DNA of 64,000 nucleotides. It comes from an uncultured Candidatus Saccharibacteria bacterium (lineage in GTDB: Bacteria > Patescibacteriota > Minisyncoccia > Minisyncoccales > Staskawiczbacteraceae). The notes under the pieces are model-generated. The model was not told where the DNA came from, did no database searches, and saw only the letters and a program-made list of their open reading frames with translations. A program made the position numbers and the translations under genes. The stretch lies in the NCBI GenBank assembly GCA_964599285.1, contig CAZREI010000001.1, forward strand, positions 34,562 through 98,561. Reading direction: 5' to 3'. Numbering within the stretch: the stretch's first letter is position 1; the number at the start of each line of letters is the position of its first letter. This document shows, piece by piece, positions 6,838-55,848 of this stretch.

Positions 6838-7386
6838 ATGATTTCCTTAATTGCCGCGGTTGCCCAAAACGGAGTTATTGGTTATAGAAACGCCATGCCC
6901 TGGAATTTGCCCAATGATTTTCGATGGTTTAAGGAAAAAACGTTTGGCAAACAGTTAATTGTTGGACGCAAAACGTTTGAATCCATCGGCAAAAAACCGT
7001 TGCCCAACCGATCCCATGTTATCCTGACTACCCAGCGGGCATACGAAATCCCCAGCGATTGTAATTGTGTTCTGGCGCACTCTATAGATCAGGTCTTGGC
7101 GCTGACGCAGGAAAATCAAGAAACCATGGTATGCGGTGGCGGAATTGTCTACCAGCAATTTTTGCCCACGGCAGACAGGATGTACCTGACGTACGTTCAC
7201 CACGACTTTGAGGGAGACGTGTTCTTTCCAGAATTTTCGCCAACCCAATGGAGCCAAATCAATAAAAGGGACTACGGTCCCGATGAGGAAAATGTATACG
7301 CGTACTCCATCATCACTTTCCAAAAAACCAAGACTTCTTTGAATTACGAAATGCTTTCGAGGTATTTTCTTCAAATTTTGAGATAG
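6838..7386 (+). CDS. folA: dihydrofolate reductase
   Basis: 'MISLIAAVAQNGVIGYRNAMPWNLPNDFRWFKEKTFGKQLIVGRKTFESIG' is classic DHFR. The start was moved to ATG 6838. The last ~16 codons and the stop lie inside repeat family A. Confidence 0.85.
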   Translation: MISLIAAVAQNGVIGYRNAMPWNLPNDFRWFKEKTFGKQLIVGRKTFESIGKKPLPNRSHVILTTQRAYEIPSDCNCVLAHSIDQVLALTQENQETMVCGGGIVYQQFLPTADRMYLTYVHHDFEGDVFFPEFSPTQWSQINKRDYGPDEENVYAYSIITFQKTKTSLNYEMLSRYFLQILR

Positions 7387-7508
7387 AAATTTGATAGAAT
7401 TTTTCGGCTTAGCCAACGGCTCCGCCGAAAAATTATAGCGAATTTGTAGCCAAAATTTGGAGAAAAGACCCGAAATCCACTTTTTAATGTGCATTTCGTA
7501 ATTCAAAG
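7339..7508 (+). repeat. family A long-hairpin MITE-like element, copy 1
   Basis: TIRs are TTGAATTACGAAATG...CATTTCGTAATTCAA. Core is 'gagatagaaatttgatagaatttttcggcttagccaacggctccgccgaaaaattatagcgaattt'. Confidence 0.85.
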
Positions 7509-7513
7509 AAGGT

Positions 7514-8287
7514 TTAGCTCTTGGTTTTTCTTTGCTTACCGCTACCGCCTTTACGCCATGGCATTGAAGAAAATAGGGGATAGTACACATCTTCTTTTGT
7601 TTTGATTTCAAATGAAGAAAACGGCAGTTTTGACACGACGGGTTTAGTTACAAATGTTACCCAGGGAATGTCGGTGATAAGGCAAAGCGGCGTAGCCTCG
7701 GACCCTTCACCCATTAAAACAACAGCAGCCGCGGCAAGCCCATCGGCAATATTGGTTTGAGCCATTTTAAATTTTCTTCCAAACAAGTCGGGCTTGGCGC
7801 GATAATCTTTTAAGGGATTAAATCCGTAGTGGGCCAGCGAAATTCCCAAAACGCCGCGACGCAGGGGGAGGGTGTGAGAATCAGTAATAATAATGCCCAG
7901 ATTTTTTACCTTATATTTTTTTCGAAGCCAAGTCCATAATTGTTTTGCTGCGGCTTGCACATCTTTTGGCCATAGAATGTAGTAGCCATCAGCGTTACTT
8001 TCGTCAACGCCGGCCGCGGGAATGAATACATTATTTTTTATGGTGTGCATGCACCAAGCTCCCGGGGTGGCTTGGCGAGGCAAATACAAATCAGCTTCTT
8101 GCGCTACCAGTTCGTCCTTATTATGATCGATCATCGGCACACAGCATCCTTGCCAAATGCTCACTACTTTTGAGGTAATGGCGATGATACTTTTTTCGGG
8201 AATGGATTTTACAGAATCTTCAATGGCCGCCAAAAGATCATCTTGCGGTGGCCGGAGAACGCTGGTTTTAATGGGTTGCACGATCAT
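7514..8287 (-). CDS. CofE-family gamma-glutamyl ligase-like protein
   Basis: 'IITDSHTLPLRRGVLGISLAHYGFNPLKDYRAKPDLFGRKFKMAQTNIADGLAAAAVVLMGEGSEATP' matches the F420-0:gamma-glutamyl ligase fold pattern. Convergent with folA. Confidence 0.65.
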   Translation of the reverse strand: MIVQPIKTSVLRPPQDDLLAAIEDSVKSIPEKSIIAITSKVVSIWQGCCVPMIDHNKDELVAQEADLYLPRQATPGAWCMHTIKNNVFIPAAGVDESNADGYYILWPKDVQAAAKQLWTWLRKKYKVKNLGIIITDSHTLPLRRGVLGISLAHYGFNPLKDYRAKPDLFGRKFKMAQTNIADGLAAAAVVLMGEGSEATPLCLITDIPWVTFVTKPVVSKLPFSSFEIKTKEDVYYPLFSSMPWRKGGSGKQRKTKS

Positions 8288-8725: not shown

Positions 8726-8921
8726 TCCGCCAGGGGGATCAAGGTTCGATAAGCAGATTGGCAAACACCCAAGGAGATTGAGCAACTGAACCTCAAAAGA
8801 AATCCCTTATTGTTGCGTCGCATATTATACTACCCCGAATCGCCCAGCCAAATCTCTTCATTTCCCTTCATTGGTTGCGGTGGTTCGGGGGAAAGACAAA
8901 TGGGTCGGCTTGTTTTCATTA

Positions 8922-9092
8922 CCGTGAATCGCGAAATGGTTTCTTTGGATTTCCCCCAATTTTTGAGATAGAAATTTGATAGAATTTTTCGGCTTAGCCA
9001 ACGGCTCCGCCGAAAAATAATAGCGAATTTATAGCCAAAAATTGGGGGAAAGACAAGAAATACGTTTTCATCATCCATTTCGTAATTCACGG
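8922..9092 (+). repeat. family A element, copy 2
   Basis: TIR variant CCGTGAATCGCGAAATGG...CCATTTCGTAATTCACGG with the same core as copy 1. Confidence 0.85.
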
Positions 9093-9118
9093 TTCATTAT
9101 CATTCATTTTTTAAAATT

Positions 9119-9643: not shown

Positions 9644-9664
9644 GCAACGGATCATTTAAGATTT

Positions 9665-9881
9665 CCTTGAATTACGAAATGCCCGTTTAAGAAGACTCTT
9701 TTTGTCTTTTCCGAGACGGGGCGAATTGACTGCGGCCAATTGCGCCTCGCGTCTTGACCAAATTTTGGCTATAAATTCGCTACAATTTTTCGGCGGAGCC
9801 GTTGGCTAAGCCGAAAAATTCTATTGAATTTCTATCTCAAAATTTGAGAAAAATCCTAAAAAGGCATTTCGTAATTCAAGG
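9665..9881 (-). repeat. family A element, copy 3 (inverted, with a ~45-bp internal insert)
   Basis: The core is in reverse orientation ('ggctataaattcgctacaatttttcggcggagccgttggctaagccgaaaaattctattgaatttctatctc'). Extra segment 'ccgagacggggcgaattgactgcggccaattgcgcctcgcgtcttgacc'. Confidence 0.8.
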
Positions 9882-9956
9882 AAAAGTTTAAAAGATTTTA
9901 CATCAGGTGCCGTCATACTGTATGATGACGCTCGCATGATTACCTGCAAGGTTAAG

Positions 9957-10044
9957 CAGTGTCCGCATGCGCCAGCGGCAACCATATTCTTTCAGGAGAA
10001 ATTAAATATGCCTGAAAGAGTGCCGCTGTCGCATGCGGACAGTG
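9957..10044 (+). promoter_or_regulatory. 88-nt hairpin enclosing the SD and start codon of the next ORF
   Basis: 24-nt arms at 9957-9980 and 10021-10044 (2 mismatches). An inner stem ctttcagg/cctgaaag flanks AGGAG (9994-9998) and ATG 10008. Confidence 0.5.
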
Positions 10045-14590: not shown

Positions 14591-14605
14591 AATATAAAAG
14601 CTTCT

Positions 14606-14677
14606 CGTCATTGCGAGGCGCGCCGAAGCAATCTTTTTGACAATGCCTGGATTGCCGCACTGCGGTTCGCAATGACG
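14606..14677. repeat. family C (GTCATTGCGAG...GCAATC) inverted pair
   Basis: 'cgtcattgcgaggcgcgccgaagcaatc' and 'gattgccgcactgcggttcgcaatgacg'. Confidence 0.8.
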
Positions 14678-14735
14678 AAAAGAAGAAATCTCCTCAACTA
14701 AGAGCCGAGCGACTTGCCCGGCTCTTAGTATCTGG

Positions 14736-16020: not shown

Positions 16021-16896
16021 ATGAAAACCATACCATTATTTGCTTTCGCGGGAATTATTGCGCTATTTTTCGTTGCCAGTTTTTTGCCGGTCCAGCCTGC
16101 AAAAGCCATTACCTGCTACTCGCACGCCTCGCGCCAATGCATCAGTAATATTTCTTACTGGTATAACTCCTGTGGCGTCCTGGAAGACTTGGCCCAAAAC
16201 TGTAATGCCACCGGCCAGGTCTGTCAAAGCGGCCAATGCGTCAGTAAAAACCCCGTAACGACAATAACCCCAAGACCAACCCCGCAAAGCTCGCCGGTTT
16301 TGGTGCAAGCTCAGAATTCTCAAACCGCCAGCGCGACCATTGCTGTTTTTGGAAAAAATCACACCGACAGCGCGCAATGGACCAAAAATGTTTCCGCGGC
16401 GACTGGCAGCACCATTGACGTTTTGATTGTTGTCAAAAATAAATCCGAAACTCCCATCACCGATGCCTCGGTAAAAACATATTTGACCAGCCCGATTTTT
16501 ACCATCAGCGACTTACAAATTAACAACGCAACGGCTCCTTCCAACGATATTTCCCAAATTAACCTTGGTACGCTGGCAGCCAAAACAGCGCAAATTATTT
16601 CTTTTAGCGCGACGGTGCAATCACCCAGTGTCCAACCCCAAGCAAACGGCGCGACCGGAACCCAAATTATTGCCAACGTTACTTCGGGCACGGCCACGTA
16701 CGATTCGGATTACCTGGTAGTTTCTACCAACGCCGGCAATGGCGCATTAGCATCGGCTACTCCCACTGCCAGCCCAAGTTCAAAATTGGGATCCGGTTTT
16801 TTTAGCTTTAACAATAACTGGTTTATTTGGTTTTTGATCGTCCTGGTGCTGGTAGTAATCTTTATCATTTTGTTCAGGCGATTCTCCCGCGAATAA
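16021..16896 (+). CDS. secreted/anchored protein with a Cys-rich 'YWYNSCG' module and a DUF11-like domain
   Basis: Signal peptide. 'CYSHASRQCISNISYWYNSCGVLEDLAQNCNATGQVCQSGQCV'. C-terminal TM 'WFIWFLIVLVLVVIFIILFRRFSRE'. Confidence 0.7.
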   Translation: MKTIPLFAFAGIIALFFVASFLPVQPAKAITCYSHASRQCISNISYWYNSCGVLEDLAQNCNATGQVCQSGQCVSKNPVTTITPRPTPQSSPVLVQAQNSQTASATIAVFGKNHTDSAQWTKNVSAATGSTIDVLIVVKNKSETPITDASVKTYLTSPIFTISDLQINNATAPSNDISQINLGTLAAKTAQIISFSATVQSPSVQPQANGATGTQIIANVTSGTATYDSDYLVVSTNAGNGALASATPTASPSSKLGSGFFSFNNNWFIWFLIVLVLVVIFIILFRRFSRE

Positions 16897-16903
16897 CTTT
16901 TGT

Positions 16904-17079
16904 AACCGTGAATCACGAAATGGACAATAAGAAACATATTTCTTGTCTTTCCCCCAATTTTTGGCTATAAATTCGCTATAATTTTTCGGCGGACCCTTTG
17001 GGTAAGCCGAAAAATTCTATCAAATTTCTATCTCAAAAATTGGGGAAAATCCAAAGAAACCATTTCGTGATTCACGGTT
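16904..17079 (-). repeat. family A element, copy 4
   Basis: TIRs are CCGTGAATCACGAAATGG...CCATTTCGTGATTCACGG with the core in reverse orientation. It ends 10 nt before the ATG at 17090. Confidence 0.85.
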
Positions 17080-17089
17080 ATGCTTTGTC

Positions 17090-19717
17090 ATGCCCCAATC
17101 CGCAGCGGTTTTTGAATTTACTTCTTATACATTTGAACCCGATAAAAAAAGGGTTCTTTTCCGTTACACCACCAAATTTAAGGATCGACCACCGCTGCGT
17201 TTTACCGAAACTATTTTGTTGCCAAAGATTCCCAACCTTGATCGCATTCCGCCAGAACCTTTAAAAAAACTCCTCCAAAGCCTGCACTTAATACTGGGCA
17301 TCAGTTATTACAAGTTTTATTGCCCGCCCGCCGTAGCCTTGGCGAAGGAGGATGCGAAACTGTCAAAACAAGAAGCCGAGTTTTGGAACATCGTATACAA
17401 AAAAGGCCTTGGCGAATTTTTTTACAAAAACAATCTGAATCCAAACCGCGCTCCAAAATTTCCGTACGGGGTAACCCGTAACCAGGAACCCGTAACCAGT
17501 AAATTACGCGTTACGGGTTACGCGTTACCGGTTACCAAAAGATCTCTCGTGGGCATCGGGGGAGGAAAAGACTCCATCGTCGCCGCGGAATTATTGAAAG
17601 AAGGCGGGTTTGACGCCACCGCGTTTTACGTTCAAACCAGCAGCGACTCATCGCTGGTAAATAGCATCATCAAAAAAACTGGCCTGCCGTCGCTGAAAAT
17701 TCGACGATTGCTAGACGAAAAAGTGCATCAACCTCATCTTTATGATGGCCATGTTCCCGTGTCAGCCATCCTGGCATTTTTGGGATTTTTTGCCGGCATA
17801 CTTTACGGTTTTGATTATGTCATCGTGGGCAACGAATACAGCAGTAACTTTGGCAACCTCAAATACAAAGGTTTAGACATTAACCACCAGTGGAGCAAGT
17901 CGTTTGAATTTGAAACGCTTTTTCAAACCTATGTAAAAACTTTCATCACGCCTGACATAACCTATTTTTCTTTGCTGCGGCGGTTTTACGAAATCCGGAT
18001 TGTAAAATTGTTTGCAAGTCATAAAAAATATTTTCCGCATTTTTCAAGCTGCAATTCCAATTTCAGAATCGCGGAATCACGCGGAAATTTACGCGGAAAA
18101 ATGCGGAATAAATGGTGTGGTCGATGTGCTAAGTGTGTTTTTGTATTTACACTTCTGTCGGCGTTTTTACCAAAAAAAGAATTGGTTAACATTTTTAAAA
18201 AAAACTTGTACCAAGATAAAACTCTCCTGCCATTATTTAAAGATATTTTGGGATTTGGCGCGATGAAACCTTTTGATTGCGTCGGCACGTTTGAAGAAGC
18301 GCAAACCGCGATGTGGCTGGCCAAAAAAAGATTCGCCCGTGATTTTATTATGCGACAACTTGGCCGGCGCGTAACATTTCACCAAGAAGTTTTTACGACC
18401 AACAAAAACGCCCGCATTCCCGAACAGTTTACTTTCTTGGGAATGGATAGCACGTTGATAGCCGGATTTGGCAACGAGGGAAGTGCTACCAAGAAATACC
18501 TTGAAAAATATTACCCAAAATTAAAACTTGGGATAGCCGAAATATATAAAAATAGGGAAGTGTTCCGCGTAGTTCCGCGTGAATTTCCGCGTAGTTCCGC
18601 GGCTTTTGATCTGGCAATCAAAACTCCAGGCATCAAAAAAGAACTGATTAAAATTCCGTACACCACCGCCACCAATATTTTTTTCTCAAATATTTCCGGC
18701 AAATATCTTACTATCGGCGTTACCGGCAGCAAAGGAAAAAGCACCACCGCGTCACTCATTTTTCATATCTTAAAAACCGCCGGAAAAAATGTTCACCCCG
18801 TTAAATCCGCCAAAAGCGGTGTTTCGCAAACTGCGAAACAATTTAACAGGGTAAAACTATTGGGCAACATTGGAAAACCCATGCTAGAAAATTTGCTCCA
18901 TCCTATAGCAAAAAATACCATTTTTGTCCTGGAACTTTCCAGTTACCAGTTAGATGACCTGCGGTTTTCTCCCGATATTGCCGTGGTGACAAATTTATTT
19001 CCGGAGCACTTGGATTTTCACGGTAGTCTTCAACATTATTACGATGCCAAAAAAAATATCATCCGCTACCAGCAGCCCGACCAATATTTTGTCTACGATA
19101 AAAAAACTGAACCGTGGCTAAAAGAATATCGAGGCAAGCCGGTGCCATTTGCCAAAACAATTCCGGTTCCAAAACACCAAATTCCATTATTGGGTCAGCA
19201 CAATGAAAGCAACATTAAAGCGGCCATCGCCGTCGCTCGGATTTTAAAAATTCCGGAAGCAAAAATAAAAAAAGCCATTAAATGTTTTAAAGGCTTACCG
19301 CATCGATTAGAAAACGTAGGAACATTTAAGGGAATTATTTTTTACGACGACGCCATTTCCACCACGCCCGAATCAACCATCATGGCCATCAAAGCCTTGC
19401 CAGGCGTGCAAACTATTTTTTTGGGAGGCAGCGACCGCGGCTACGATTTTTCGCAGTTGGAAAAAACCTTAAAACAATATAAAATAAAGAACGTGGTGCT
19501 GTTTCCCGACACCGGCTCGCGCATCATAAAAAACACCAAGGGTTTGAATATTCTAAAAACTCGCAGCATGGAAAAAGCGATTGCCTTCGCCTACAAACAC
19601 ACCACACCAGGACACATCTGTTTATTGTCCTGCGCATCGCCCAGCTATTCATTATGGAAAAACTTTGAACACAAAGGCACCCAATTTACCAGATTGGTAA
19701 AAAAGTTGGCTAAGTAG
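17090..19717 (+). CDS. murD: fusion protein: PP-loop-like N-terminal domain (possible MurL-type epimerase) plus UDP-MurNAc-L-Ala--Glu ligase MurD
   Basis: The C-terminal half carries 'IGVTGSKGKSTTASL', 'LELSSYQLDD', 'NLFPEHLDFHGS' and 'GLPHRLE'. The N-terminal ~455 aa carry 'VGIGGGKDSIVAAELL' and 'WCGRCAKC'. Confidence 0.85.
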   Translation: MPQSAAVFEFTSYTFEPDKKRVLFRYTTKFKDRPPLRFTETILLPKIPNLDRIPPEPLKKLLQSLHLILGISYYKFYCPPAVALAKEDAKLSKQEAEFWNIVYKKGLGEFFYKNNLNPNRAPKFPYGVTRNQEPVTSKLRVTGYALPVTKRSLVGIGGGKDSIVAAELLKEGGFDATAFYVQTSSDSSLVNSIIKKTGLPSLKIRRLLDEKVHQPHLYDGHVPVSAILAFLGFFAGILYGFDYVIVGNEYSSNFGNLKYKGLDINHQWSKSFEFETLFQTYVKTFITPDITYFSLLRRFYEIRIVKLFASHKKYFPHFSSCNSNFRIAESRGNLRGKMRNKWCGRCAKCVFVFTLLSAFLPKKELVNIFKKNLYQDKTLLPLFKDILGFGAMKPFDCVGTFEEAQTAMWLAKKRFARDFIMRQLGRRVTFHQEVFTTNKNARIPEQFTFLGMDSTLIAGFGNEGSATKKYLEKYYPKLKLGIAEIYKNREVFRVVPREFPRSSAAFDLAIKTPGIKKELIKIPYTTATNIFFSNISGKYLTIGVTGSKGKSTTASLIFHILKTAGKNVHPVKSAKSGVSQTAKQFNRVKLLGNIGKPMLENLLHPIAKNTIFVLELSSYQLDDLRFSPDIAVVTNLFPEHLDFHGSLQHYYDAKKNIIRYQQPDQYFVYDKKTEPWLKEYRGKPVPFAKTIPVPKHQIPLLGQHNESNIKAAIAVARILKIPEAKIKKAIKCFKGLPHRLENVGTFKGIIFYDDAISTTPESTIMAIKALPGVQTIFLGGSDRGYDFSQLEKTLKQYKIKNVVLFPDTGSRIIKNTKGLNILKTRSMEKAIAFAYKHTTPGHICLLSCASPSYSLWKNFEHKGTQFTRLVKKLAK
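17464..17536. repeat. intragenic in-frame hairpin (CGTAAC/GTTACG words)
   Basis: 'ggtaacccgtaaccaggaacccgtaacc...gttacgggttacgcgttaccggttacc' encodes 'GVTRNQEPVTSKLRVTGYALPVT'. Confidence 0.7.
18067..18113 (+). repeat. intragenic array of 4x CGCGGAA
   Basis: 'aatcgcggaatcacgcggaaatttacgcggaaaaatgcggaa' encodes 'ESRGNLRGKMRN'. Confidence 0.7.
18558..18602 (-). repeat. intragenic array of 4x TTCCGCG (inverse of the 18067 array)
   Basis: 'ttccgcgtagttccgcgtgaatttccgcgtagttccgcgg' encodes 'FRVVPREFPRSSA'. Confidence 0.7.
18796..18851. repeat. intragenic in-frame compound hairpin
   Basis: Outer stem ccccgttaaat/atttaacaggg with inner hairpins ccgc-caaaa-gcgg and tgtttcgc-aaact-gcgaaaca. Encodes 'HPVKSAKSGVSQTAKQFNRV' between the MurD P-loop helix and 'LLGNIG'. 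Confidence 0.7.
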
Positions 19718-19720
19718 AAC

Positions 19721-19806
19721 TGGCTACCAAATACGAATCTGTACGAATATACCAATAACCAAAGCGTTTTCATTCGTATATTCGTACAGATTCGTATTTG
19801 GTAGCA
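19721..19806. repeat. family D (TACGAATAT-word) long hairpin, copy 1
   Basis: Perfect 29-bp stem gctaccaaatacgaatctgtacgaatata / tatattcgtacagattcgtatttggtagc. It ends 3 nt before the ftsW start. Confidence 0.85.
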
Positions 19807-21536: not shown

Positions 21537-22649
21537 ATGAAAATACTTTTTACCGGTGGGGGAACGGGCGGCCACTTGTTTCCCGTCATTGCCATCGCCC
21601 GGGAACTCAAGCGCTTGTCGCAGGACCCGTCCATTAGCCTGCACTACATTGGTCCCGCGGACAGATTGGGCAGCGCGGTTTTGGCCCAGGAAAACATTGC
21701 CATTCATTCCATTGTTGCCGGAAAACTGCGCAACTATTTTTCTTTACAAAATATCAGCGACGCGCTTTTTTTTATTCCCCTTGGATTTTTGCAAAGCTTT
21801 TTTTTGTTGCTTTTTATCCGACCCAATCTGGTTTTCAGCAAAGGCGGCACCGGATCGGCCCAGGTGGTACTGGCCGCCAGAATTTTGGCCATCCCGATAT
21901 TCATTCACGAATCCGATTCGGTAGCCGGCCGCGCCAACAAGCTGGCCTATTCGTGGGCCAAAAAAGTGTTTGCCTCATTTGAAAAAACTGATTACTTTGA
22001 CCCGTCAAAATCCGTGGTAGTGGGCAACCCGATATTAAAAGAAATCACCGAAGGTGACAAAAAAACCGCAAAAGATATTTTCAATCTTGCACTGCAAAAA
22101 CCGGTTTTACTCTTTTTGGGAGGTTCGCAAGGCGCCCAGCCCATCAACGATTTTATCCTTGGCATTTTGCAGGATCTGACAAGAAGTTACCAGGTCATCC
22201 ATGTCTGTGGCAAAAAAAATGAAACAGCAGTCAAAGAAGAGTCTGACGTGATTTTGACTGGCGACGCAAAAGCGCAATACCATGTTTTTGGATTCCTCAA
22301 TGAAATAGAACTAAAACATGCCTTCGCCGTCGCGGACTTGGTGGTTTCGCGGGGCGGGTCGGGCAGCATTTTTGAAATCGCCGCTTGCGGCAAACCCAGC
22401 ATTATTATTCCTTTGCCATCATCGGCCAACAACCACCAAGCCAAAAATGCCTATGCGTACGCCAAAAATGGCGCGGCGCTGATCATAGAACAAGACAACC
22501 TGACCCCAAACTTTTTTCTGGAAAAACTGCGCAATTATTTTTCACATCCGGAAGAGTTGGAAAGCATGAGCCAAGCCGCCCTGCAATTTGCCAAGCCACT
22601 GGCAGCCAAAGCGATTGCAAGAGAAATCTTGGAATTTCTCAATGCGTAA
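21537..22649 (+). CDS. murG: UDP-GlcNAc:lipid I N-acetylglucosaminyltransferase MurG
   Basis: 'KILFTGGGTGGHLFPVIAIA', 'RGGSGSIFEIAACGKPSIIIPLP' and 'HQAKNA'. Confidence 0.9.
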   Translation: MKILFTGGGTGGHLFPVIAIARELKRLSQDPSISLHYIGPADRLGSAVLAQENIAIHSIVAGKLRNYFSLQNISDALFFIPLGFLQSFFLLLFIRPNLVFSKGGTGSAQVVLAARILAIPIFIHESDSVAGRANKLAYSWAKKVFASFEKTDYFDPSKSVVVGNPILKEITEGDKKTAKDIFNLALQKPVLLFLGGSQGAQPINDFILGILQDLTRSYQVIHVCGKKNETAVKEESDVILTGDAKAQYHVFGFLNEIELKHAFAVADLVVSRGGSGSIFEIAACGKPSIIIPLPSSANNHQAKNAYAYAKNGAALIIEQDNLTPNFFLEKLRNYFSHPEELESMSQAALQFAKPLAAKAIAREILEFLNA

Positions 22650-22788
22650 TTGATCTAATTAACCTAATTATTCTAATTGATCTAATCAAATCCCAATGCC
22701 AAAATGTCCAAACCGTTTTAGCAATTAGTCATTCACGTTTTTAGACATTCCTTAGAATAATTAGGTTAATTAGAACAATTAGAATAAT
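22648..22788 (+). repeat. family F long hairpin (AATTAGAATAATT arms), copy 1
   Basis: Arms 'taattaacctaattattctaattg' and 'cttagaataattaggttaattagaacaattagaataatt'. It ends 7 nt before the gltX ATG. Confidence 0.8.
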
Positions 22789-22795
22789 TTAAAAA

Positions 22796-30413: not shown

Positions 30414-30552
30414 CTTGTCGGTCCGCTAAGCGGACCTTGACCCCGCTCAGCGGGGTCGCATAATAAAACACTCCTACTCGTAGGTGGGTAGGAGTGTTTT
30501 GTCGGTCCGCTACGCGGACCCTGACCCCGCTCAGCGGGGTCGTATAATATAA
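30414..30552 (-). repeat. composite: family B copy, 24-nt hairpin module (flipped), family B copy (right island boundary)
   Basis: 'cttgtcggtccgctaagcggaccttgaccccgctcagcggggtcgcataataaaacactcctactcgtaggtgggtaggagtgttttgtcggtccgctacgcggaccctgaccccgctcagcggggtcgtataatat'. Confidence 0.85.
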
Positions 30553-31444: not shown

Positions 31445-31530
31445 TTGCTACGAAATACGAATTTTTTACGAATATACGAAACTAAACGCTTATGTTCGTA
31501 TATTCGCAGGTAATTCGTATTTCGTAGAGA
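31445..31530. repeat. family D long hairpin, copy 2 (rpmA leader)
   Basis: 'gctacgaaatacgaattttttacgaatatacgaa...ttcgtatattcgcaggtaattcgtatttcgtagaga' ends 5 nt before ATG 31536. Confidence 0.85.
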
Positions 31531-33611: not shown

Positions 33612-33826
33612 GATAATGGTAATGCAAATCTACAAATCTCATGCGAATGCCGCGAAATTGCGAATGCTACAAATCTTGGATTGCCGCGTGTCCGGCTTGC
33701 GAGCCGGCACTCGCAATGACGACGAGCGCATATACGCCTCTCACCGTCATTGCGAGCCGCAGCGTGGCAATCCAGACACATTAGCAATTTTGTAGATTAG
33801 CATGAGATTTGTAGATTTGCATTGCC
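33612..33826. repeat. family G composite long hairpin with a family C pair at its centre
   Basis: The left arm 'ggtaatgcaaatctacaaatctcatgc' and right arm 'gcatgagatttgtagatttgcattgcc' enclose 33679-33773 ('ggattgccgcg...cgcaatgacg' / 'cgtcattgcgagccgcagcgtggcaatcc'). Confidence 0.8.
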
Positions 33827-36215: not shown

Positions 36216-36304
36216 TCTCTACGAATTACGAATGTAGTACGAATATACGAATGCAAATGTTTTTGGTTATTGGTATATTCGTAAAAAATTCGTATTTCGT
36301 AGCA
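36216..36304. repeat. family D long hairpin, copy 3
   Basis: 'ctctacgaattacgaatgtagtacgaatatacgaatg...ggtatattcgtaaaaaattcgtatttcgtagca'. Confidence 0.85.
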
Positions 36305-40025: not shown

Positions 40026-40132
40026 AATCGTGGCGCGCTTTATTAGGCTCGCGTAAGTAGATGCCCGAGAAACTTGGCAAATCCCCACTACAAAACAAAG
40101 CGTCAAATTAATTTACCTTTTTATGTATTTTA

Positions 40133-40305
40133 CTTTGAATTACGAAATGCTTTCGAGGTATTTTCTCCAAATTTTGAGATAGAAATTTGATAGAATTTTT
40201 CGGCTTAGCCAACGGCTCCGCCGAAAAATTATAGCGAATTTATAGCCAAAATTTGGAGAAAAGACGCGAAACTCGCCTTTTCAAATGGCATTTCGTAATT
40301 CAAAG
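40133..40305 (+). repeat. family A element, copy 5
   Basis: Near-identical to copy 1 (TTGAATTACGAAATGCTTTCGAGGTATTTTCT...). Confidence 0.85.
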
Positions 40306-40570
40306 TATTTTAGTACAACGTATCAAAAAAGAATCCTTTTTGATGTATGACATTACATGCTACCCTTTTTGTGTGTTGCTGTCAAGCCTTGGCGCAATTG
40401 GCAAGCATTTTTCTGGGGTTTTTGCCGTGTTCATTATATTCTTTGAAAAATGAAGATAGTATTAATCAGCAAAAAACCAGAAGCAGGAAGCAAGAAAAAT
40501 CTTGTTCAACAAAAAACGCTTTTGCAGCGTATGAGGCATTGTAACCGCAGAAGATTAATATTTTATGAAC

Positions 40571-40657
40571 ATGCTACCAAATACCAATAGTTACGAATAT
40601 ACCAATAACCAAAACGTTTTCATTCGTATATTCGTAAAAAATTCGTATTTCGTAGCG
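40571..40657. repeat. family D long hairpin, copy 4
   Basis: 'atgctaccaaataccaatagttacgaatataccaataaccaaaacgttttcattcgtatattcgtaaaaaattcgtatttcgtagcga'. Confidence 0.85.
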
Positions 40658-41923: not shown

Positions 41924-42097
41924 GGCTACGAAATACGAATTTTTTACGAATATACGGAAACGCTTCGCTTCTCCACGAATTACGAAACGAGTACGAATAT
42001 ACGAACGTGAACCTATGACTCATTTTCGTATATTCGTAAGATTTCGTATTTCGTAGCCCGTTTTGGTATATTCGTAAAAAATTCGTATTTCGTAGCG
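41924..42097. repeat. family D double-length hairpin cluster, copy 5
   Basis: 'gctacgaaatacgaattttttacgaatatacgg...cgtatattcgtaagatttcgtatttcgtagc' plus 'ggtatattcgtaaaaaattcgtatttcgtagcga'. It starts 8 nt upstream of the mraY ATG. Confidence 0.85.
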
Positions 42098-46877: not shown

Positions 46878-46907
46878 CGGCAAAGCTGATGCTTTGCCGT
46901 CTTTTTT
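46878..46907 (+). terminator. rho-independent terminator
   Basis: cggcaaagc-tgat-gctttgccg followed by tcttttttt. Confidence 0.65.
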
Positions 46908-48232
46908 TAAAACTTGTCCACAAGCTTATAAATATCTCCAGCTCCCATAATCACTAATACTTCCCCATTTTTTATGTTTTCTTTTACGAATTTTTCGGCT
47001 TGATCAGTTGGCATATAAGTTGCATTTTTGCGAGCGATTTTTTTTACCAGATTTTCAGAGCTTACCTCATTGCTGATTTTTTTCTCCTCGCGGCCAGCGA
47101 CATCGTAAATATCGGTAATAATAATGGTATCTATTTTGACTTGCCGAAACACTTTTACAAAATCTTTTAATAAATAAAACGTGCGCTGATATTGGTGGGG
47201 CTGGAAAATGAGCCAGATTTTTCTTCGCCCTTCCGAAGCCTTGCGCGAAGGAGGGTTAGAAGGATATTTTTCTCGTGCGGCTTTAAGTGTCGCTAACACT
47301 TCGTTTGGATGATGGCCGTAATCAGAAACCACGATTATTTTTTTCCCATTGACATTCCCTTCCTTAATTTCGAATCTTCTCCAAGATCCCTTGTATTCAG
47401 AAAGAACTTTAAACGTAATAGCATCTTTGATATGCAAAATTCTGGCCACTGCCAGTACCGCCAATGCGTTGGACACGTTATGCTGGCCGGGAATTTTTAA
47501 AATCTTTTTTATTTTTGCCGATTCTTTCTGGCGCAGCGAATATGGCATAGCGGAAAATTTCCCACCAGAAATTTTTTTCAAATTTTTATCGTCGTTATTA
47601 AATACCAAAAATCCATCGCGGGGTAACTTGGCAATAAAATGCTTGAAGGTTTTTACAACGTTGGCAAACGTTTTAAAATAATCCAAATGTTCTTTGTCCA
47701 CGTTGGTGACTACCGTAATTTTAGGAAAATAATGGGAAAAAGAATCATCGTACTCGCAGGCTTCAATGACCAGGTACTTGCTCTGGCCCATCCTAAAATT
47801 TGAATTATTAAACTCTTTTAATTTAGTGCCGACAATCACCGTCGGGTCCAGCCCCGCTTTTACCAACGTCAAAGCAATCATGGCCGTGGTAGTACTTTTG
47901 CCATGGCTCCCAGAAACCGCGATGGTGTCGTATGTTTTGGTTAATTCTCCCAATGCTTCAGGGTAAGTTATAGCTTTTAGCTTATAGCTTATAGCTTTTA
48001 GCAATTCCGGGTTATTCTGCGCAACTGCGGGACTATAAACTACTAAATCAAAACTTTTATCTATGTGTTCTGCTTTATTGCCAATGAGAATTTTTACTCC
48101 TTTGGCTTCCAAAAAATCGGTAATTTCCGACTGTGCCAAATCCGAGCCACTAATTTTGTGTCCCTGCCCCAAATAATATTGGGCCAAAGCCGAAACCCCA
48201 ATACCCCCAATGCCAATAACGTGAATTTTCAT
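46907..48232 (-). CDS. murC: UDP-N-acetylmuramate--L-alanine ligase
   Basis: 'KIHVIGIGGIGVSALAQ', 'IAVSGSHGKSTTTAMI' and 'VVTNVDKEHLDYF'. Confidence 0.9.
   Translation of the reverse strand: MKIHVIGIGGIGVSALAQYYLGQGHKISGSDLAQSEITDFLEAKGVKILIGNKAEHIDKSFDLVVYSPAVAQNNPELLKAISYKLKAITYPEALGELTKTYDTIAVSGSHGKSTTTAMIALTLVKAGLDPTVIVGTKLKEFNNSNFRMGQSKYLVIEACEYDDSFSHYFPKITVVTNVDKEHLDYFKTFANVVKTFKHFIAKLPRDGFLVFNNDDKNLKKISGGKFSAMPYSLRQKESAKIKKILKIPGQHNVSNALAVLAVARILHIKDAITFKVLSEYKGSWRRFEIKEGNVNGKKIIVVSDYGHHPNEVLATLKAAREKYPSNPPSRKASEGRRKIWLIFQPHQYQRTFYLLKDFVKVFRQVKIDTIIITDIYDVAGREEKKISNEVSSENLVKKIARKNATYMPTDQAEKFVKENIKNGEVLVIMGAGDIYKLVDKF
47223..47263. repeat. intragenic in-frame repeat word in murC (AGCCTTGCGCGAAGGAGG type)
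   Basis: 'cttcgcccttccgaagccttgcgcgaaggagggttagaagg' encodes 'PSNPPSRKASEGRRK' on the minus strand. Confidence 0.55.
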
Positions 48233-48294
48233 ATTTTTCTGTCCAGACGCGAGCGAGGCCGGCTTTGCCGGATCGCCCGTCTCGGGAAAAATTT

Positions 48295-48376
48295 CTTACG
48301 AATTACGAATTTGGCCGAATTACGAATGTACGAATTCGCCGTATTCGTAATTCGCTTAAATTCGTAATTCGTAGGA
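48295..48376. repeat. family D-type hairpin, copy 6
   Basis: 'cttacgaattacgaatttggccgaattacgaatgtacgaattcgccgtattcgtaattcgcttaaattcgtaattcgtagga'. Confidence 0.8.
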
Positions 48377-49048
48377 TTATTTTAATTGATGTGATTCAAT
48401 AATTACATAGCGCGGCCCCTGGCGCGTCAGTTCTGATTCCATTACTTCAATCGATTCAACCGTGAATGTCGCATCAAGGGATTGGCTGACTTCCGGTCGC
48501 TCCTCTGGTTCAATCGCCCGCCACTCCCAATCTTTAATTCTGGCCAAGGTAACATGTGCGGTAAAACTATTTTTATCAATTTTAAATTTTATGCTTTCAA
48601 ACAACGCGTCTTCTAAATCTTTTTTAAGTTTTGATGCTTCGCTATTTGCTTGGCCACCTGCCCAAATGTATCTCGGGCTCCTAAGTTTTGGCATCGATAA
48701 CGCATCATTGTCTATATTCTCATCTTCTGTAACCATATCGCTGCTGACACTATTGCTATTTAAAAATTTAGGCGCCCGAGGAGGAACTTTTCCTTCCGGC
48801 CCGTACGCTATTTTTTGCAGGGTAATATTAAAAGCCCTGTGGCGGCTGGCGACTTCTTTTGCATCCAAACAGACTTGACCCAATTCAACATCGGTTAAGT
48901 CTCCCAAAAACAATAGGGTAATATGCAAATTTTCTTCGGGCGTCCACTTGGCAGGCAAATCCGGCCATTTTTTTTGAAAACCGGCCAAAAACTTTTTGAC
49001 ATCGCCAGGCAGATTTATGGCGATAAAAATTCGATGTCGCTTATGCAT
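48377..49048 (-). CDS. thpR: 2H-phosphoesterase (2'-5' RNA ligase / ThpR family) with a central insertion
   Basis: 'HITLLFLG' and 'HVTLAR' HxT/S motifs, spaced ~35-40 aa further apart than I recall for the family. Confidence 0.8.
   Translation of the reverse strand: MHKRHRIFIAINLPGDVKKFLAGFQKKWPDLPAKWTPEENLHITLLFLGDLTDVELGQVCLDAKEVASRHRAFNITLQKIAYGPEGKVPPRAPKFLNSNSVSSDMVTEDENIDNDALSMPKLRSPRYIWAGGQANSEASKLKKDLEDALFESIKFKIDKNSFTAHVTLARIKDWEWRAIEPEERPEVSQSLDATFTVESIEVMESELTRQGPRYVIIESHQLK
48672..48781. repeat. intragenic ~110-bp TIR-bounded insertion in thpR
   Basis: The TIRs ctcgggctcctaagtttt (48672-48689) and aaaatttaggcgcccgag (48763-48780) enclose sequence translated as 'PKFLNSNSVSSDMVTEDENIDNDALSMPKLRSP'. 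Confidence 0.65.
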
Positions 49049-49589: not shown

Positions 49590-50294
49590 ATGGAAATGAT
49601 GAATAAAGAAATTGCTGATATTTTTAATGACATGGCTATCCTCTTGGAAATTAAGGGAGATTCGGCTTTTCGAATCAATGCTTACCGAAAATCGGCTCGG
49701 ATTTTGGCTTCCCTACCCCAGGATATTTCAAGTATTTATCAGGAGAAGGGGTTAAAAGGCATACGGGATATCGGCATCGGAGAGAAAAATGCCAAGAAAA
49801 TTGAGGAGTATATTCAAAGCGCCGCGCGCCCGCGGGCGCGCGGCGCAGGTGGCTTCGGAAAAATCAAAGACTACGAAAAATTAAAAGAAGAAACCGCTAT
49901 CCGCCAAATTATCACCCATTTTTTCAAATCCAAGGGACTGGGCTTGCAAGAATTAAAAGAACATGCTAAAAAAAGAAAGATAATCTATTCCCGCTACACC
50001 AAACCGGCAAAACAGCTTTTAGAATTGGCTGGATCCATTGAAGGCGCCAAACAAGCCATTGATACGGTAGCCGCCTGGGCCAATTCGCGCAAACTGGATT
50101 ACACCATTGAAACGGTTTTTAAAAAGTGGCTGGAATTGGATCGCTTAAAGCCCAAAGAAATTATCAAAAAACCGTTTTACCAGGGTGACCCGATAGTAGA
50201 AAAACACGGCAAGCGTTATGTTATTTCAAAGCAGGGAGAATGGCTCTTGTTCGCGGGCAAGGACAAAGACATAGAGTGGAGAATAGTAAATTAA
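49590..50294 (+). CDS. helix-hairpin-helix protein resembling the N-terminal 8-kDa domain of PolX, without a polymerase domain
   Basis: 'EIADIFNDMAILLEIKGDSAFRINAYRKSARILASLPQDI...IGIGEKNAKKIEEYI'. The start was moved past the terminator. Confidence 0.55.
   Translation: MEMMNKEIADIFNDMAILLEIKGDSAFRINAYRKSARILASLPQDISSIYQEKGLKGIRDIGIGEKNAKKIEEYIQSAARPRARGAGGFGKIKDYEKLKEETAIRQIITHFFKSKGLGLQELKEHAKKRKIIYSRYTKPAKQLLELAGSIEGAKQAIDTVAAWANSRKLDYTIETVFKKWLELDRLKPKEIIKKPFYQGDPIVEKHGKRYVISKQGEWLLFAGKDKDIEWRIVN
49819..49846. repeat. perfect 28-nt GC palindrome embedded in frame
   Basis: gcgccgcgcgcccg|cgggcgcgcggcgc encodes 'SAARPRARGAG'. Confidence 0.8.
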
Positions 50295-50424
50295 CCTAAT
50301 TATTCTAATTATTCTAATCAAATCCCAATACAAAAATACCTAATGCCTAAAATCGTGCTTGGGCATTCACTGATTTAGTCATTATTTAGAATAATTAGTT
50401 CAATTAGAATAATTAGAATAATTT
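50290..50424 (+). repeat. family F long hairpin, copy 2
   Basis: Arms 'ttaacctaattattctaattattctaat' and 'tttagaataattagttcaattagaataattagaataatt'. It ends 7 nt before the efp ATG. Confidence 0.8.
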
Positions 50425-54494: not shown

Positions 54495-54639
54495 GAATTA
54501 TTCTAATTATTCTAAGTGCTCTAGTTATTCTAAGGAATGTCTAAAAACGTGAATGACTAATTGCTAAAACGGTTTTGGGATTTTGGTCATTGGGATTTAT
54601 TTAGGTCAATTAGAGTAATTAGGTTAATTAGAATAATTC
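54495..54639 (-). repeat. family F long hairpin, copy 3 (reverse orientation of copy 1)
   Basis: The centre 'ggaatgtctaaaaacgtgaatgactaattgctaaaacggttttgggattttggtcattgggattt' is the reverse complement of the copy 1 centre. It starts 7 nt upstream of the ATPase ATG. Confidence 0.8.
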
Positions 54640-55688: not shown

Positions 55689-55848
55689 TGTCATTGCGAG
55701 ACGGCGCGCCCTCGGGCGCGCCGTTTTGGTAACTCTCGCCACCGTCATTGCGAGTCCCGACCGCAGACCCGCTAAGCGGGCCCGCAGTCGGAGACGCGGC
55801 AATCCAGTCATCACAAAAAGATTGCTTCGCTGCGGCTCGCAATGACGG
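55689..55848. repeat. cluster of three family C elements (one containing a GC palindrome at 55701-55724)
   Basis: 'tgtcattgcgagacggcgcgccctcgggcgcgccgt', 'ccgtcattgcgagtcccgaccgcag...gacgcggcaatcc' and 'gattgcttcgctgcggctcgcaatgacgg'. Confidence 0.8.

What the first reader, a model, noticed from the sequence alone, without database searches (positions are those of the whole stretch)
48672..48781. A ~110-bp TIR-bounded element translated as part of the 2H phosphoesterase
Inside thpR/ligT, the 18-nt inverted repeats ctcgggctcctaagtttt and aaaatttaggcgcccgag bound a segment translated as PKFLNSNSVSSDMVTEDENIDNDALSMPKLRSP. This lengthens the spacing between the two HxT motifs by roughly the same amount. 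It is the largest in-frame repeat-like insertion in the window, and the clearest case with MITE-like ends.
Basis: seen in the sequence. Interest (0 to 1): 0.55.

Follow-up and report, generated by a model that had tools for sequence, protein, structure and literature searches.

The report
Hairpin-bounded in-frame insert in thpR
A 109-base segment closed by a conserved 19-base-pair hairpin sits in frame in an RNA-repair enzyme gene of a tiny uncultured bacterium. The same element is found only at this one codon junction in scattered relatives, so it looks like a single-site selfish insertion rather than an ordinary jumping repeat.

Summary
Arms 48672-48689 and 48763-48780 are 16/18 complementary and bound an in-frame segment of thpR (48377-49048, minus strand). 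This adds 35 residues between the two HxT motifs (spacing 123 residues versus 88).

It is not a multicopy MITE. No second copy turned up in the window, in about 370 kb of related DNA, or in the genome, metagenome and viral scans. Every copy found lies at the same thpR codon junction.

It is also not a chance repeat. At least 15 diverged Parcubacteria thpR genes carry it. Element length runs from 43 to 109 nt, always in frame.

- The arms co-vary: 5 pairs show compensatory changes, and 0 of 500 shuffles reach the observed covariation score.
- The arms keep synonymous codons: 86% identical codons versus 50% in the rest of the gene.
- The arms rank among the most conserved 18-nt windows of the gene, above the catalytic motif.
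- The interior is as diverged as synonymous sites.
- AlphaFold2 predicts a disordered loop.

Carriers are scattered on the gene tree. One copy is decayed. One pair of hosts about 63% identical shares an identical insert.

Best reading: a single-site, RPE-like palindromic insertion element that is translated and tolerated, often lost, and occasionally transferred. The machinery is unknown.

The parts
48377..49048 (-). thpR/ligT gene (RNA 2',3'-cyclic phosphodiesterase, 2H family), 223 aa. It is the host of the insert.
   Evidence: ORF. Pfam LigT_PEase 1.1e-20. AF2 model with Foldseek hits to 1iuh, 1vdx, 5h7e and 5ldm, target TM-score 0.78-0.85. Orthologs are named RNA 2',3'-cyclic phosphodiesterase in Candidatus Staskawiczbacteria.
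48672..48780 (-). Whole hairpin-bounded element, 109 nt. It begins at the second base of the Pro90 codon and ends at the second base of the Arg126 codon.
   Evidence: Covariance model R1 scores 66.2 bits here.
48677..48781 (-). The 35 extra codons (Pro90 to Ser124), 105 nt, that are absent from the closest ortholog. The boundary can be slid over the duplicated Pro-Arg codons.
   Evidence: Codon alignments of window vs P0002 and of P0036 vs P0089.
48762..48780 (-). 5' arm in gene orientation: CTCGGGCGCCTAAATTTTT, coding (P)RAPKF(L).
   Evidence: Most conserved 18-nt window of the gene among 10 carriers.
48672..48690 (-). 3' arm in gene orientation: CAAAACTTAGGAGCCCGAG, coding (P)KLRSPR.
   Evidence: Ranks 4th of 514 windows.
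48691..48761 (-). Variable interior (the hairpin loop), 71 nt. It codes an acidic, hydrophilic peptide, LNSNSVSSDMVTEDENIDNDALSM.
   Evidence: Same length and ungapped homology to the P0036 interior, 45-47% nt identity. pLDDT below 50.
48917..48925 (-). First HxT motif (His42-Ile-Thr44).
   Evidence: Invariant columns H42 and T44 in alignment A1. Coordinates computed from the ORF start.
48548..48556 (-). Second HxT motif (His165-Val-Thr167).
   Evidence: Invariant H165 and nearly invariant T167. Coordinates computed from the ORF start.

Best explanation
This is a small palindromic insertion element with no ORF of its own, 109 nt here and 43-109 nt in relatives. It occupies one codon junction of thpR: the turn K-x-P|P-R-[YM]-[IV]-W that links the two lobes of the 2H phosphoesterase.

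Its two 19-nt arms pair into a hairpin stem in single-stranded DNA or RNA. The loop between them is free to change in sequence and length.

The length is always a multiple of three beyond the host frame, and the sense orientation is stop-free and hydrophilic. It is therefore translated as a disordered acidic surface loop that the enzyme tolerates.

Inferred history: it mostly co-diverges with its host gene, is often lost precisely, sometimes decays, and is occasionally moved between lineages into the same site.

Inferred cause of arm conservation: the arms are held at the nucleotide level because the stem itself is what unknown, trans-acting insertion, excision or repair machinery acts on. In anatomy and consequence it works like a Rickettsia palindromic element. 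It differs in being a single-target, homing-like element rather than a dispersed repeat.

Shown: the insertion, the frame, the stem conservation and covariation, the variable loop, the patchy distribution and the disordered prediction. Inferred: mobility, loss and the role of the stem.
For: 1. Insertion and site. Most orthologs are 188 aa. The window protein has 35 extra residues at one junction.

2. Same element at the same junction elsewhere. It is present in P0010, P0036, P0075, L006, L007, L008/P0271, P0289, P0290, P0294, P0298, P0313, P0333, P0337, P0369 and P0383. Sequenced element lengths are 43, 70, 76, 79 (six copies), 106 and 109 (two copies) nt, all in frame. The three copies found by a frame-blind DNA pattern were all intact ORFs.

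3. Stem. Over 12 sequences, 82.9% of cells are paired, against 30-58% when partners are slid. Five pairs changed on both sides. The covariation score is 0.107 versus 0.046 in shuffles (0/500). RNAalifold recovers the same helix independently. All six intact copies tested fold with this stem (z -1.9 to -4.2). The decayed copy does not.

4. The constraint is on nucleotides, not on the protein. The middle arm codons change amino acid while staying complementary: GCG/AGC (Ala/Ser), GAT/ATC (Asp/Ile), CCT/AGG (Pro/Arg), CCG/TGG (Pro/Trp). Identical codons given identical residues are 119/138 in the arms versus 669/1329 elsewhere. The left Arg is always CGG and the right Arg always AGA. Arm nt identity is 0.74-1.00. 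Interior identity is 0.36-0.60 and host third-position identity is 0.36-0.57. The arms rank 1st and 4th of 514 18-nt windows. Using only carriers found by protein homology, they rank 3rd and 17th of 502, above the catalytic NLHITL window.

5. Tolerated loop. AF2 gives pLDDT below 50 for residues 90-120 (87-122 with a carriers-only alignment), and more than 80% of the remaining residues score at least 70. Solved LigT structures join the two flanks directly.

6. Patchy distribution, decay and transfer. Fitch parsimony needs 11 changes for 14 carriers among 240 sequences (shuffled mean 13.7). Relatives 76-87% identical lack the insert. The P0075 left arm is decayed. P0313 and P0337 share an insert identical at 24/24 residues, while their flanks are 60% and 66% identical. 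The P0313 allele is seen on about 10 contigs.
Against: - No machinery is identified. The genes nearby are murC, an HHH_8 protein, a small unknown ORF and efp.
- No copy exists outside thpR, so transposition in the usual sense is unproven.
- Interior similarity tracks host similarity (Spearman 0.64). This fits plain vertical descent with losses.
- The single case for lateral transfer rests on protein sequences only. DNA for P0313 could not be fetched.
- Some carriers (L006-L008) were found with a pattern that fixes arm bases, which inflates apparent arm conservation. The check without them softens the result but does not remove it.
- The scans had limits. The pattern gap of 45-75 misses the 43-, 70- and 76-nt forms. 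The metagenome collection missed known JGI carriers.
Confidence: 0.5

Rival explanations
1. A host cis-acting hairpin embedded in the coding sequence. The stem forms in the thpR-murC mRNA, or in single-stranded DNA, and does a job for the cell. It could be a site for a double-strand-specific RNase, or a ribosome pause between the two lobes. The loop is merely carried along in frame.
For: The arms are conserved at the nucleotide level, including synonymous sites, and they co-vary. Loop length and sequence are irrelevant (7 to 71 nt). A C.A mismatch at stem position 3 is kept in 10 of 12 sequences. murC follows thpR on the same strand.
Against: The element is absent from the great majority of orthologs, including relatives 76-87% identical to carriers. 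The arm is allowed to decay in P0075. There is no Rfam match. There is no strand preference in stem stability (p = 0.35). An identical insert in two divergent hosts is not expected for a vertically kept regulator.
Confidence: 0.2
2. A one-off ancient insertion that is now a passive relic. A hairpin-forming segment entered the loop once in an ancestor of these Parcubacteria, has been lost many times, and never moves. The arms stay complementary through templated correction of quasi-palindromes during replication, plus some protein-level selection on PRxPKF and KFxRPR.
For: Interior similarity correlates with host similarity (Spearman 0.64). Orientation and site are the same in all 12 sequenced carriers. 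The window and P0036 interiors are collinear and as diverged as neutral sites. No other copies exist anywhere.
Against: Templated correction keeps the arms complementary but does not keep their sequence the same across lineages. Yet the arms are 74-100% identical where synonymous sites are saturated. This model needs dozens of exact, scar-free losses, since carriers are 14 of 240 and spread over the tree. P0313 and P0337 share an identical insert in hosts about 63% identical. AF2 sees no structure that would explain protein-level selection on the arms.
Confidence: 0.2
3. A classical multicopy MITE. It would be a non-autonomous transposon with terminal inverted repeats, mobilised by an IS transposase, that happened to land in frame.
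For: Terminal inverted repeats, small size, no ORF of its own, variable interior with conserved ends. The window is rich in other palindromic repeat families.
Against: There is no second copy in 64 kb, against five copies of an unrelated roughly 200-bp palindromic element in the same window. All known copies are at one codon junction of one gene. There is no clear target-site duplication. nhmmer and interior alignment show no relation to the abundant intergenic element.
Confidence: 0.05
4. An intragenic invertible segment. The inverted repeats would be recombination sites for an invertase, and flipping would switch ThpR between full-length and truncated forms.
For: Inverted repeats flank a short segment inside a gene. 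The flipped orientation would introduce a stop codon in the window copy.
Against: All 12 sequenced carriers, and both independent assemblies of this genome, are in the same orientation. No recombinase gene lies nearby. The 43-nt form has only a 7-nt loop.
Confidence: 0.03
5. A chance inverted repeat inside an ordinary lineage-specific loop extension.
For: A single 16/18 repeat is only marginally unexpected in 64 kb. Folding of the window copy alone is modest (z -1.3 to -2.0).
Against: The stem is conserved with covariation in 11 of 12 carriers, and the arms rank with the catalytic motifs in nucleotide conservation.
Confidence: 0.02

Closest known systems
Rickettsia palindromic elements (RPEs)
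   Same: Short (about 100-150 bp) palindromic elements without a transposase, inserted in frame in protein-coding genes and translated. They are thought to sit where the fold tolerates them (review PMC10969869). At orthologous sites they are inherited, and they are said to decay (my own recollection of the RPE literature, not read here). In this case the insertion is in frame, the arms are palindromic, the loop is predicted disordered and on the surface, and one copy is decayed.
   Different: RPEs are dispersed, for example 44 copies in unrelated genes of R. conorii. This element is known from one codon junction of one gene family, with no second copy in any DNA searched. Its arms are more conserved than its host's catalytic motif, while the interior is free to vary. 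I compared it with no RPE sequence, so homology is untested.
Bacterial MITEs (e.g. ERIC, Correia, Nezha)
   Same: Terminal inverted repeats, small size, no coding capacity of their own, conserved ends with a variable middle, and occasional in-frame fusions with host ORFs (PMC10969869).
   Different: No multiple copies, no clear target-site duplication, no partner IS, and a single target site.
Homing elements (inteins, group I introns with homing endonucleases)
   Same: One conserved target site in a conserved gene, patchy phylogenetic distribution, and signs of a gain, decay and precise-loss cycle. There is one apparent lateral move into the same site in a divergent host.
   Different: It encodes no endonuclease, has no splicing motifs, and stays in the protein. 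No machinery is known.
Integron attC sites and IS200/IS605 or REP hairpins (single-strand hairpin recombination substrates)
   Same: An imperfect palindrome whose stem is conserved while the terminal loop varies widely in length, with a fixed mismatch in the stem.
   Different: There are no GTTRRRY/RYYYAAC core sites and no GTAG or CGTC heads; the arms start CTCGG. It lies inside a gene and in frame, not between cassettes. No integrase, TnpA or RAYT gene is in the window neighbourhood.
Other in-frame hairpin inserts in the same genomes
   Same: In the window, murC carries a 30-nt GC-rich insert and the HHH_8 gene carries a perfect 12-bp GC hairpin, both in frame. The same thpR junction in orthologs carries other insert types: FDSAQGKP, PYSETKSLTGR..NRP, and a 14-bp hairpin in P0082.
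   Different: Those are short and GC-rich. At least one is truly dispersed, since the murC 30-mer recurs exactly in another genome's thpR loop. The thpR element has the GC content of its host gene (42%), a long loop, and is specific to one gene.

Membership tests
MITE | Terminal inverted repeats | tested here: met
   Arms are 16/18 complementary in the window and 15-18 of 19 in ten other carriers (12 of 19 in L097).
MITE | Small, with no transposase gene | tested here: met
   43-109 nt. The interior codes only a hydrophilic loop.
MITE | Several copies per genome at different sites | tested here: not met
   One copy in 64 kb at up to 3 mismatches, and by covariance model. Only thpR copies in 370 kb of related DNA. 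Public scans gave thpR hits or none. Whole genomes of carriers could not be searched.
MITE | Target-site duplication | tested here: inconclusive
   The Pro-Arg codons are duplicated at both ends (CCTCGG and CCGAGA, 4 of 6 identical). They are also part of the inverted repeat itself.
MITE | Partner autonomous IS with the same ends | not tested
   None seen in the window. No genome-wide search was possible.
Rickettsia palindromic element-like in-frame repeat | Palindromic element inserted in frame and translated | tested here: met
   Three copies found by a frame-blind pattern are intact ORFs.
Rickettsia palindromic element-like in-frame repeat | Copies in many unrelated genes | tested here: not met
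   All copies are at one thpR junction.
Rickettsia palindromic element-like in-frame repeat | Insert lies at the protein surface, compatible with the fold | tested here: met
   AF2 pLDDT is below 50 for residues 90-120 between strands 73-83 and 127-134. The core matches LigT structures.
Integron attC site | R''/R' core sites RYYYAAC ... GTTRRRY | tested here: not met
   By reading the sequence, the arms are CTCGG..CC.AAATTTT / AAAA.TT.GG..CC.AG. No GTT core is present in most copies.
Invertible segment (inverton) | Both orientations present in populations | tested here: not met
   All 12 carriers and 2 independent assemblies are in one orientation.
Intein or self-splicing intron | Splicing motifs, or size able to hold them | tested here: not met
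   Only 15-37 residues, with no Cys/Ser/Thr...Asn junctions. No Rfam intron match.
2H phosphoesterase ThpR/LigT (host gene) | Two HxT motifs, LigT Pfam domain and 2H fold | tested here: met
   H42-x-T44 and H165-x-T167. PF02834 1e-20. Foldseek probability 1.0 to 1iuh, 1vdx and 5ldm.

The most novel reading that the evidence does not exclude
This is a new kind of ORF-less homing element. It would be a bare hairpin that is inserted into, and cleanly removed from, one specific codon junction of a housekeeping gene by host or trans-acting single-strand DNA machinery. It survives because it is translated as a harmless loop. That would explain why its stem is as conserved as the enzyme's catalytic motif while the loop drifts. 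A related reading is that the conserved stem is a cis-acting RNA element that some lineages of these minimal bacteria acquired horizontally together with its loop.
Probability: 0.3. Interest if true: 0.75.

Novelty: new variant of a known kind. Interest (0 to 1): 0.58.

Why it matters
In-frame palindromic inserts have been described mainly in Rickettsia. They are cited as a way in which selfish DNA creates new protein loops.

Here the same outcome is seen in the Candidate Phyla Radiation, in three adjacent genes of one small genome. One of the elements behaves differently from any dispersed repeat. It has a single target site. Its ends are conserved at the nucleotide level as strongly as the catalytic motifs. 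Its loop is free to vary. Its distribution is patchy, and there is one probable lateral move.

If it is mobile, it gives a tractable case of site-specific insertion and excision without an element-encoded enzyme. If it is not, it is an example of a structured nucleic-acid element hidden in a coding sequence.

There is also a practical point. Such inserts inflate protein length variation in these genomes, and they mark permissive loops in the 2H phosphoesterase fold.

Tried and rejected
1. Relation to the abundant roughly 200-bp nested-palindrome intergenic element (five copies in the window). Its inner arms, CTCCAAATTTTG..70 nt..CAAAATTTGGAG, resemble the thpR arms in sequence and spacing. However, nhmmer gives no hit at E of 10 or less. 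Interior alignments score z of about 1. The covariance-model hits of 17-24 bits are no better than those of other generic palindromes. The family is absent from 300 kb of related loci. Rejected as unsupported.

2. Searching the protein database with the insert peptides alone. Only 4 candidates shared words with the query and none scored. Uninformative.

3. Profile search of 1.84 billion cluster representatives. No representative matched the insert columns. Carriers are hidden behind insert-free representatives.

4. Rfam. Nothing at the insert. Only sub-threshold microRNA-type matches to neighbouring palindromes.

5. Strand of the functional hairpin. The sense C.A mismatch would be a G.U pair on the antisense strand, but overall stem energies show no strand preference.

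6. Orientation as a test of single origin. The inverted form has stop codons in 8 of 11 copies and is very hydrophobic in the rest, so selection alone could fix the orientation.

7. Translational bypass, intein, intron and attC site. Rejected from the sequence: there is no stop codon after a take-off codon, no splice motifs, and no GTTRRRY core.

8. Literature search for in-frame palindromic inserts in Parcubacteria or the Candidate Phyla Radiation. Nothing relevant found.

Full report
**Observation**

The region 48377-49048 (minus strand) is a 223-residue ORF.
- It matches Pfam LigT_PEase at 1e-20.
- Its AlphaFold2 model matches solved LigT/ThpR structures (1iuh, 1vdx, 5h7e, 5ldm) with target TM-scores of 0.78-0.85.
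- Homolog names place the window in Candidatus Staskawiczbacteria (Parcubacteria, Candidate Phyla Radiation).

Inside the gene the inverted repeat is as described. Arms are at 48672-48689 and 48763-48780, 16/18 complementary, with 73 nt between them. The end coordinate in the finding is one base too far.

The quoted peptide is residues 93-125. The HxT motifs are 123 residues apart, against a mode of 88 in relatives. Two independent read-set assemblies reproduce the locus exactly.

**It is an insertion**

Most orthologs are 188 aa. A codon alignment with the closest relative (P0002, 76% identical, same gene order) shows exactly 35 extra codons. They lie between K-V-P and P-R-Y-I-W, and the Pro-Arg codons are present at both ends (CCTCGG ... 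CCGAGA).

Solved LigT sequences join the two flanks directly. AlphaFold2 gives pLDDT below 50 for residues 90-120. With a carriers-only alignment the low-confidence stretch is 87-122. No secondary structure is predicted there, and more than 80% of the remaining residues score at least 70. The insert is an external, probably disordered, acidic loop at the junction of the two lobes.

**It is not a dispersed repeat**

- The arm has no other match in the window at up to 3 mismatches.
- A covariance model of the element scores 66 bits here. The window's many other palindromes score 25 bits or less.
- A permissive core pattern finds only thpR copies in about 370 kb of related DNA.
- A two-arm pattern found nothing in 185,579 representative genomes and nothing in viral contigs.
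- The same pattern gave three hits in the metagenome collection. All three are thpR genes at the same junction with intact frames.

These scans have limits. The gap range misses the shorter forms found later. The metagenome collection did not return carriers known from JGI.

**It is a conserved element at one site**

Protein searches and look-ups brought the number of distinct carriers to at least 15. Twelve have DNA in hand. Element lengths are 43, 70, 76, 79 (six copies), 106 and 109 (two copies) nt, always in frame. The shortest form is little more than the two arms and a 7-nt loop.

The stem is kept:
- 82.9% of cells are paired, against 30-58% when partners are slid.
- Five pairs changed on both sides.
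- The covariation score is above all 500 shuffles.

RNAalifold finds the same helix without being told. The middle arm codons change the amino acid but stay complementary: Ala/Ser, Asp/Ile, Pro/Arg and Pro/Trp. The constraint is therefore on the nucleic acid.

Synonymous codons are identical in 86% of arm comparisons, against 50% elsewhere. The left Arg is always the codon CGG and the right Arg always AGA.

Host third positions are saturated (identity 0.36-0.57), and so is the interior (0.36-0.60). The arms are 74-100% identical.

In 18-nt sliding windows the arms rank 1st and 4th of 514. After removing carriers that had been found with an arm-based DNA pattern, they rank 3rd and 17th of 502. 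With the decayed copy included, they rank 14th and 16th of 508. The catalytic NLHITL window ranks about 43rd-45th in these checks.

**Distribution**

Carriers are scattered over the host gene tree. Fitch parsimony needs 11 changes for 14 carriers among 240 sequences, close to the shuffled mean of 13.7. Relatives 76-87% identical to carriers have clean empty sites.

Interior similarity nevertheless tracks host similarity (Spearman 0.64). The window and P0036 interiors are collinear. Much of the history therefore looks like co-divergence with repeated exact loss.

One copy (P0075) has a decayed left arm and no longer folds.

One pair stands out. P0313 and P0337 have inserts identical at 24 of 24 residues, while their flanks are 60% and 66% identical. 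The P0313 allele is seen on about ten contigs, and its nearest relative lacks the insert. This suggests at least one recent move of the insert alone. The evidence is at protein level only.

**Context**

The junction is a hot spot. Orthologs carry unrelated inserts there:
- FDSAQGKP-type;
- a family of about 19 residues, PYSETKSLTGR..NRP, which also has inverted-repeat ends;
- a 14-bp hairpin in P0082;
- GC-rich pieces.

Compared with its closest syntenic relative, the window genome has in-frame inserts in three adjacent genes:
- murC, +11 residues, 47225-47254;
- thpR, the element studied here;
- the HHH_8 gene, +12 residues, a perfect 12-bp GC hairpin at about 49818-49853.

The murC 30-mer recurs exactly inside the thpR loop of another genome.

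**Interpretation**

The anatomy and consequence match Rickettsia palindromic elements: palindromic, no ORF of their own, in frame, translated and tolerated at the surface (PMC10969869). The defining dispersal across many genes is not met.

Several features fit a single-site, homing-like selfish element better than a passive relic or a host regulator:
- conserved ends with a free interior;
- one target site;
- patchy distribution;
- one decayed copy;
- one probable lateral move.

No machinery is identified. A cis-acting RNA or DNA hairpin with a host function, and an ancient relic maintained by templated correction, both remain live alternatives. Confidences are 0.5 for the single-site element, 0.2 for each of those two rivals, 0.05 for a classical MITE, 0.03 for an inverton and 0.02 for a chance repeat.

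**Verdict**

I rate the finding as a new variant of a known kind, with interest 0.58.

Noticed in passing
window 47225-47254 (minus strand, inside murC 46907-48232): A 30-nt GC-rich piece, CCTCCTTCGCGCAAGGCTTCGGAAGGGCGA, adds 11 residues (SNPPSRKASEGR) to MurC relative to the closest relative. The identical 30-mer lies inside the thpR hot-spot loop of another genome (L053 208-237). A copy with 3 mismatches is in L040 97-126. It looks like a short dispersed element that lands in frame in different genes.
   Followed up: partly
window about 49818-49853 (plus strand, in the HHH_8-domain gene ending at 50294): A perfect 12-bp GC hairpin, GCGCCGCGCGCC-CGCG-GGCGCGCGGCGC, 92% GC in a 44% GC window. 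It adds 12 residues (SAARPRARGAGG) in frame relative to the closest relative.
   Followed up: partly
window 7312-7527, 8904-9111, 9655-9888, 16885-17098, 40119-40326: Five copies of a roughly 200-bp nested-palindrome element, mostly between genes. Outer arms are GAATTACGAAATGC / GCATTTCGTAATTC. Inner arms are CTCCAAATTTTG..70 nt..CAAAATTTGGAG. A central GC hairpin is also present. There is no Rfam family and no copy in 300 kb of related loci.
   Followed up: partly
window 48294-48376 (just downstream of thpR); also 19723-19805, 31445-31530, 36219-36302, 40591-40637, 41924-42096: Palindromes built from TACGAAT-type words, with arms up to 38 nt. The only matches are sub-threshold, generic-hairpin hits to microRNA models.
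   Followed up: no
window 22647-22789, 50288-50424, 54495-54639: AT-rich palindromic repeats built from CTAATTATTCTAATT words, lying between genes.
   Followed up: no
window 14605-14678, 33710-33756, 55742-55848; also 9957-10044 and 30420-30541: GC-rich hairpins sharing GTCATTGCGAG / CTCGCAATGAC arms. There is also a 24-nt GC palindrome, and a pair of tandemly repeated small palindromes (GGTCCGCTAAGCGGACC, GACCCCGCTCAGCGGGGTC).
   Followed up: no
window 18028-18113 (inside the 875-aa ORF 17090-19717, plus strand): Another 18-nt inverted repeat with a 50-nt spacer inside a long ORF. It could be a further in-frame hairpin-bounded segment.
   Followed up: no
L065 (thpR locus of a Nealsonbacteria genome) and proteins P0275-P0388: A second insert family at exactly the same thpR junction, PYSETKSLTGR(R/L)DKI(A/E)NRP. 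It is present in more than 15 orthologs. Its ends also form an inverted repeat (CCTATTC ... GAATAGG).
   Followed up: partly
L005 (P0082) thpR, same junction: A compact 14-bp hairpin, GGGGCGAATTTCGC-tgaa-GCGAAATTACGCCTC, translated as TDGANFAEAKLRLAS. The same protein also has an SRSQNDRGSSIESG insert at another site, shared with P0043 and P0094.
   Followed up: no
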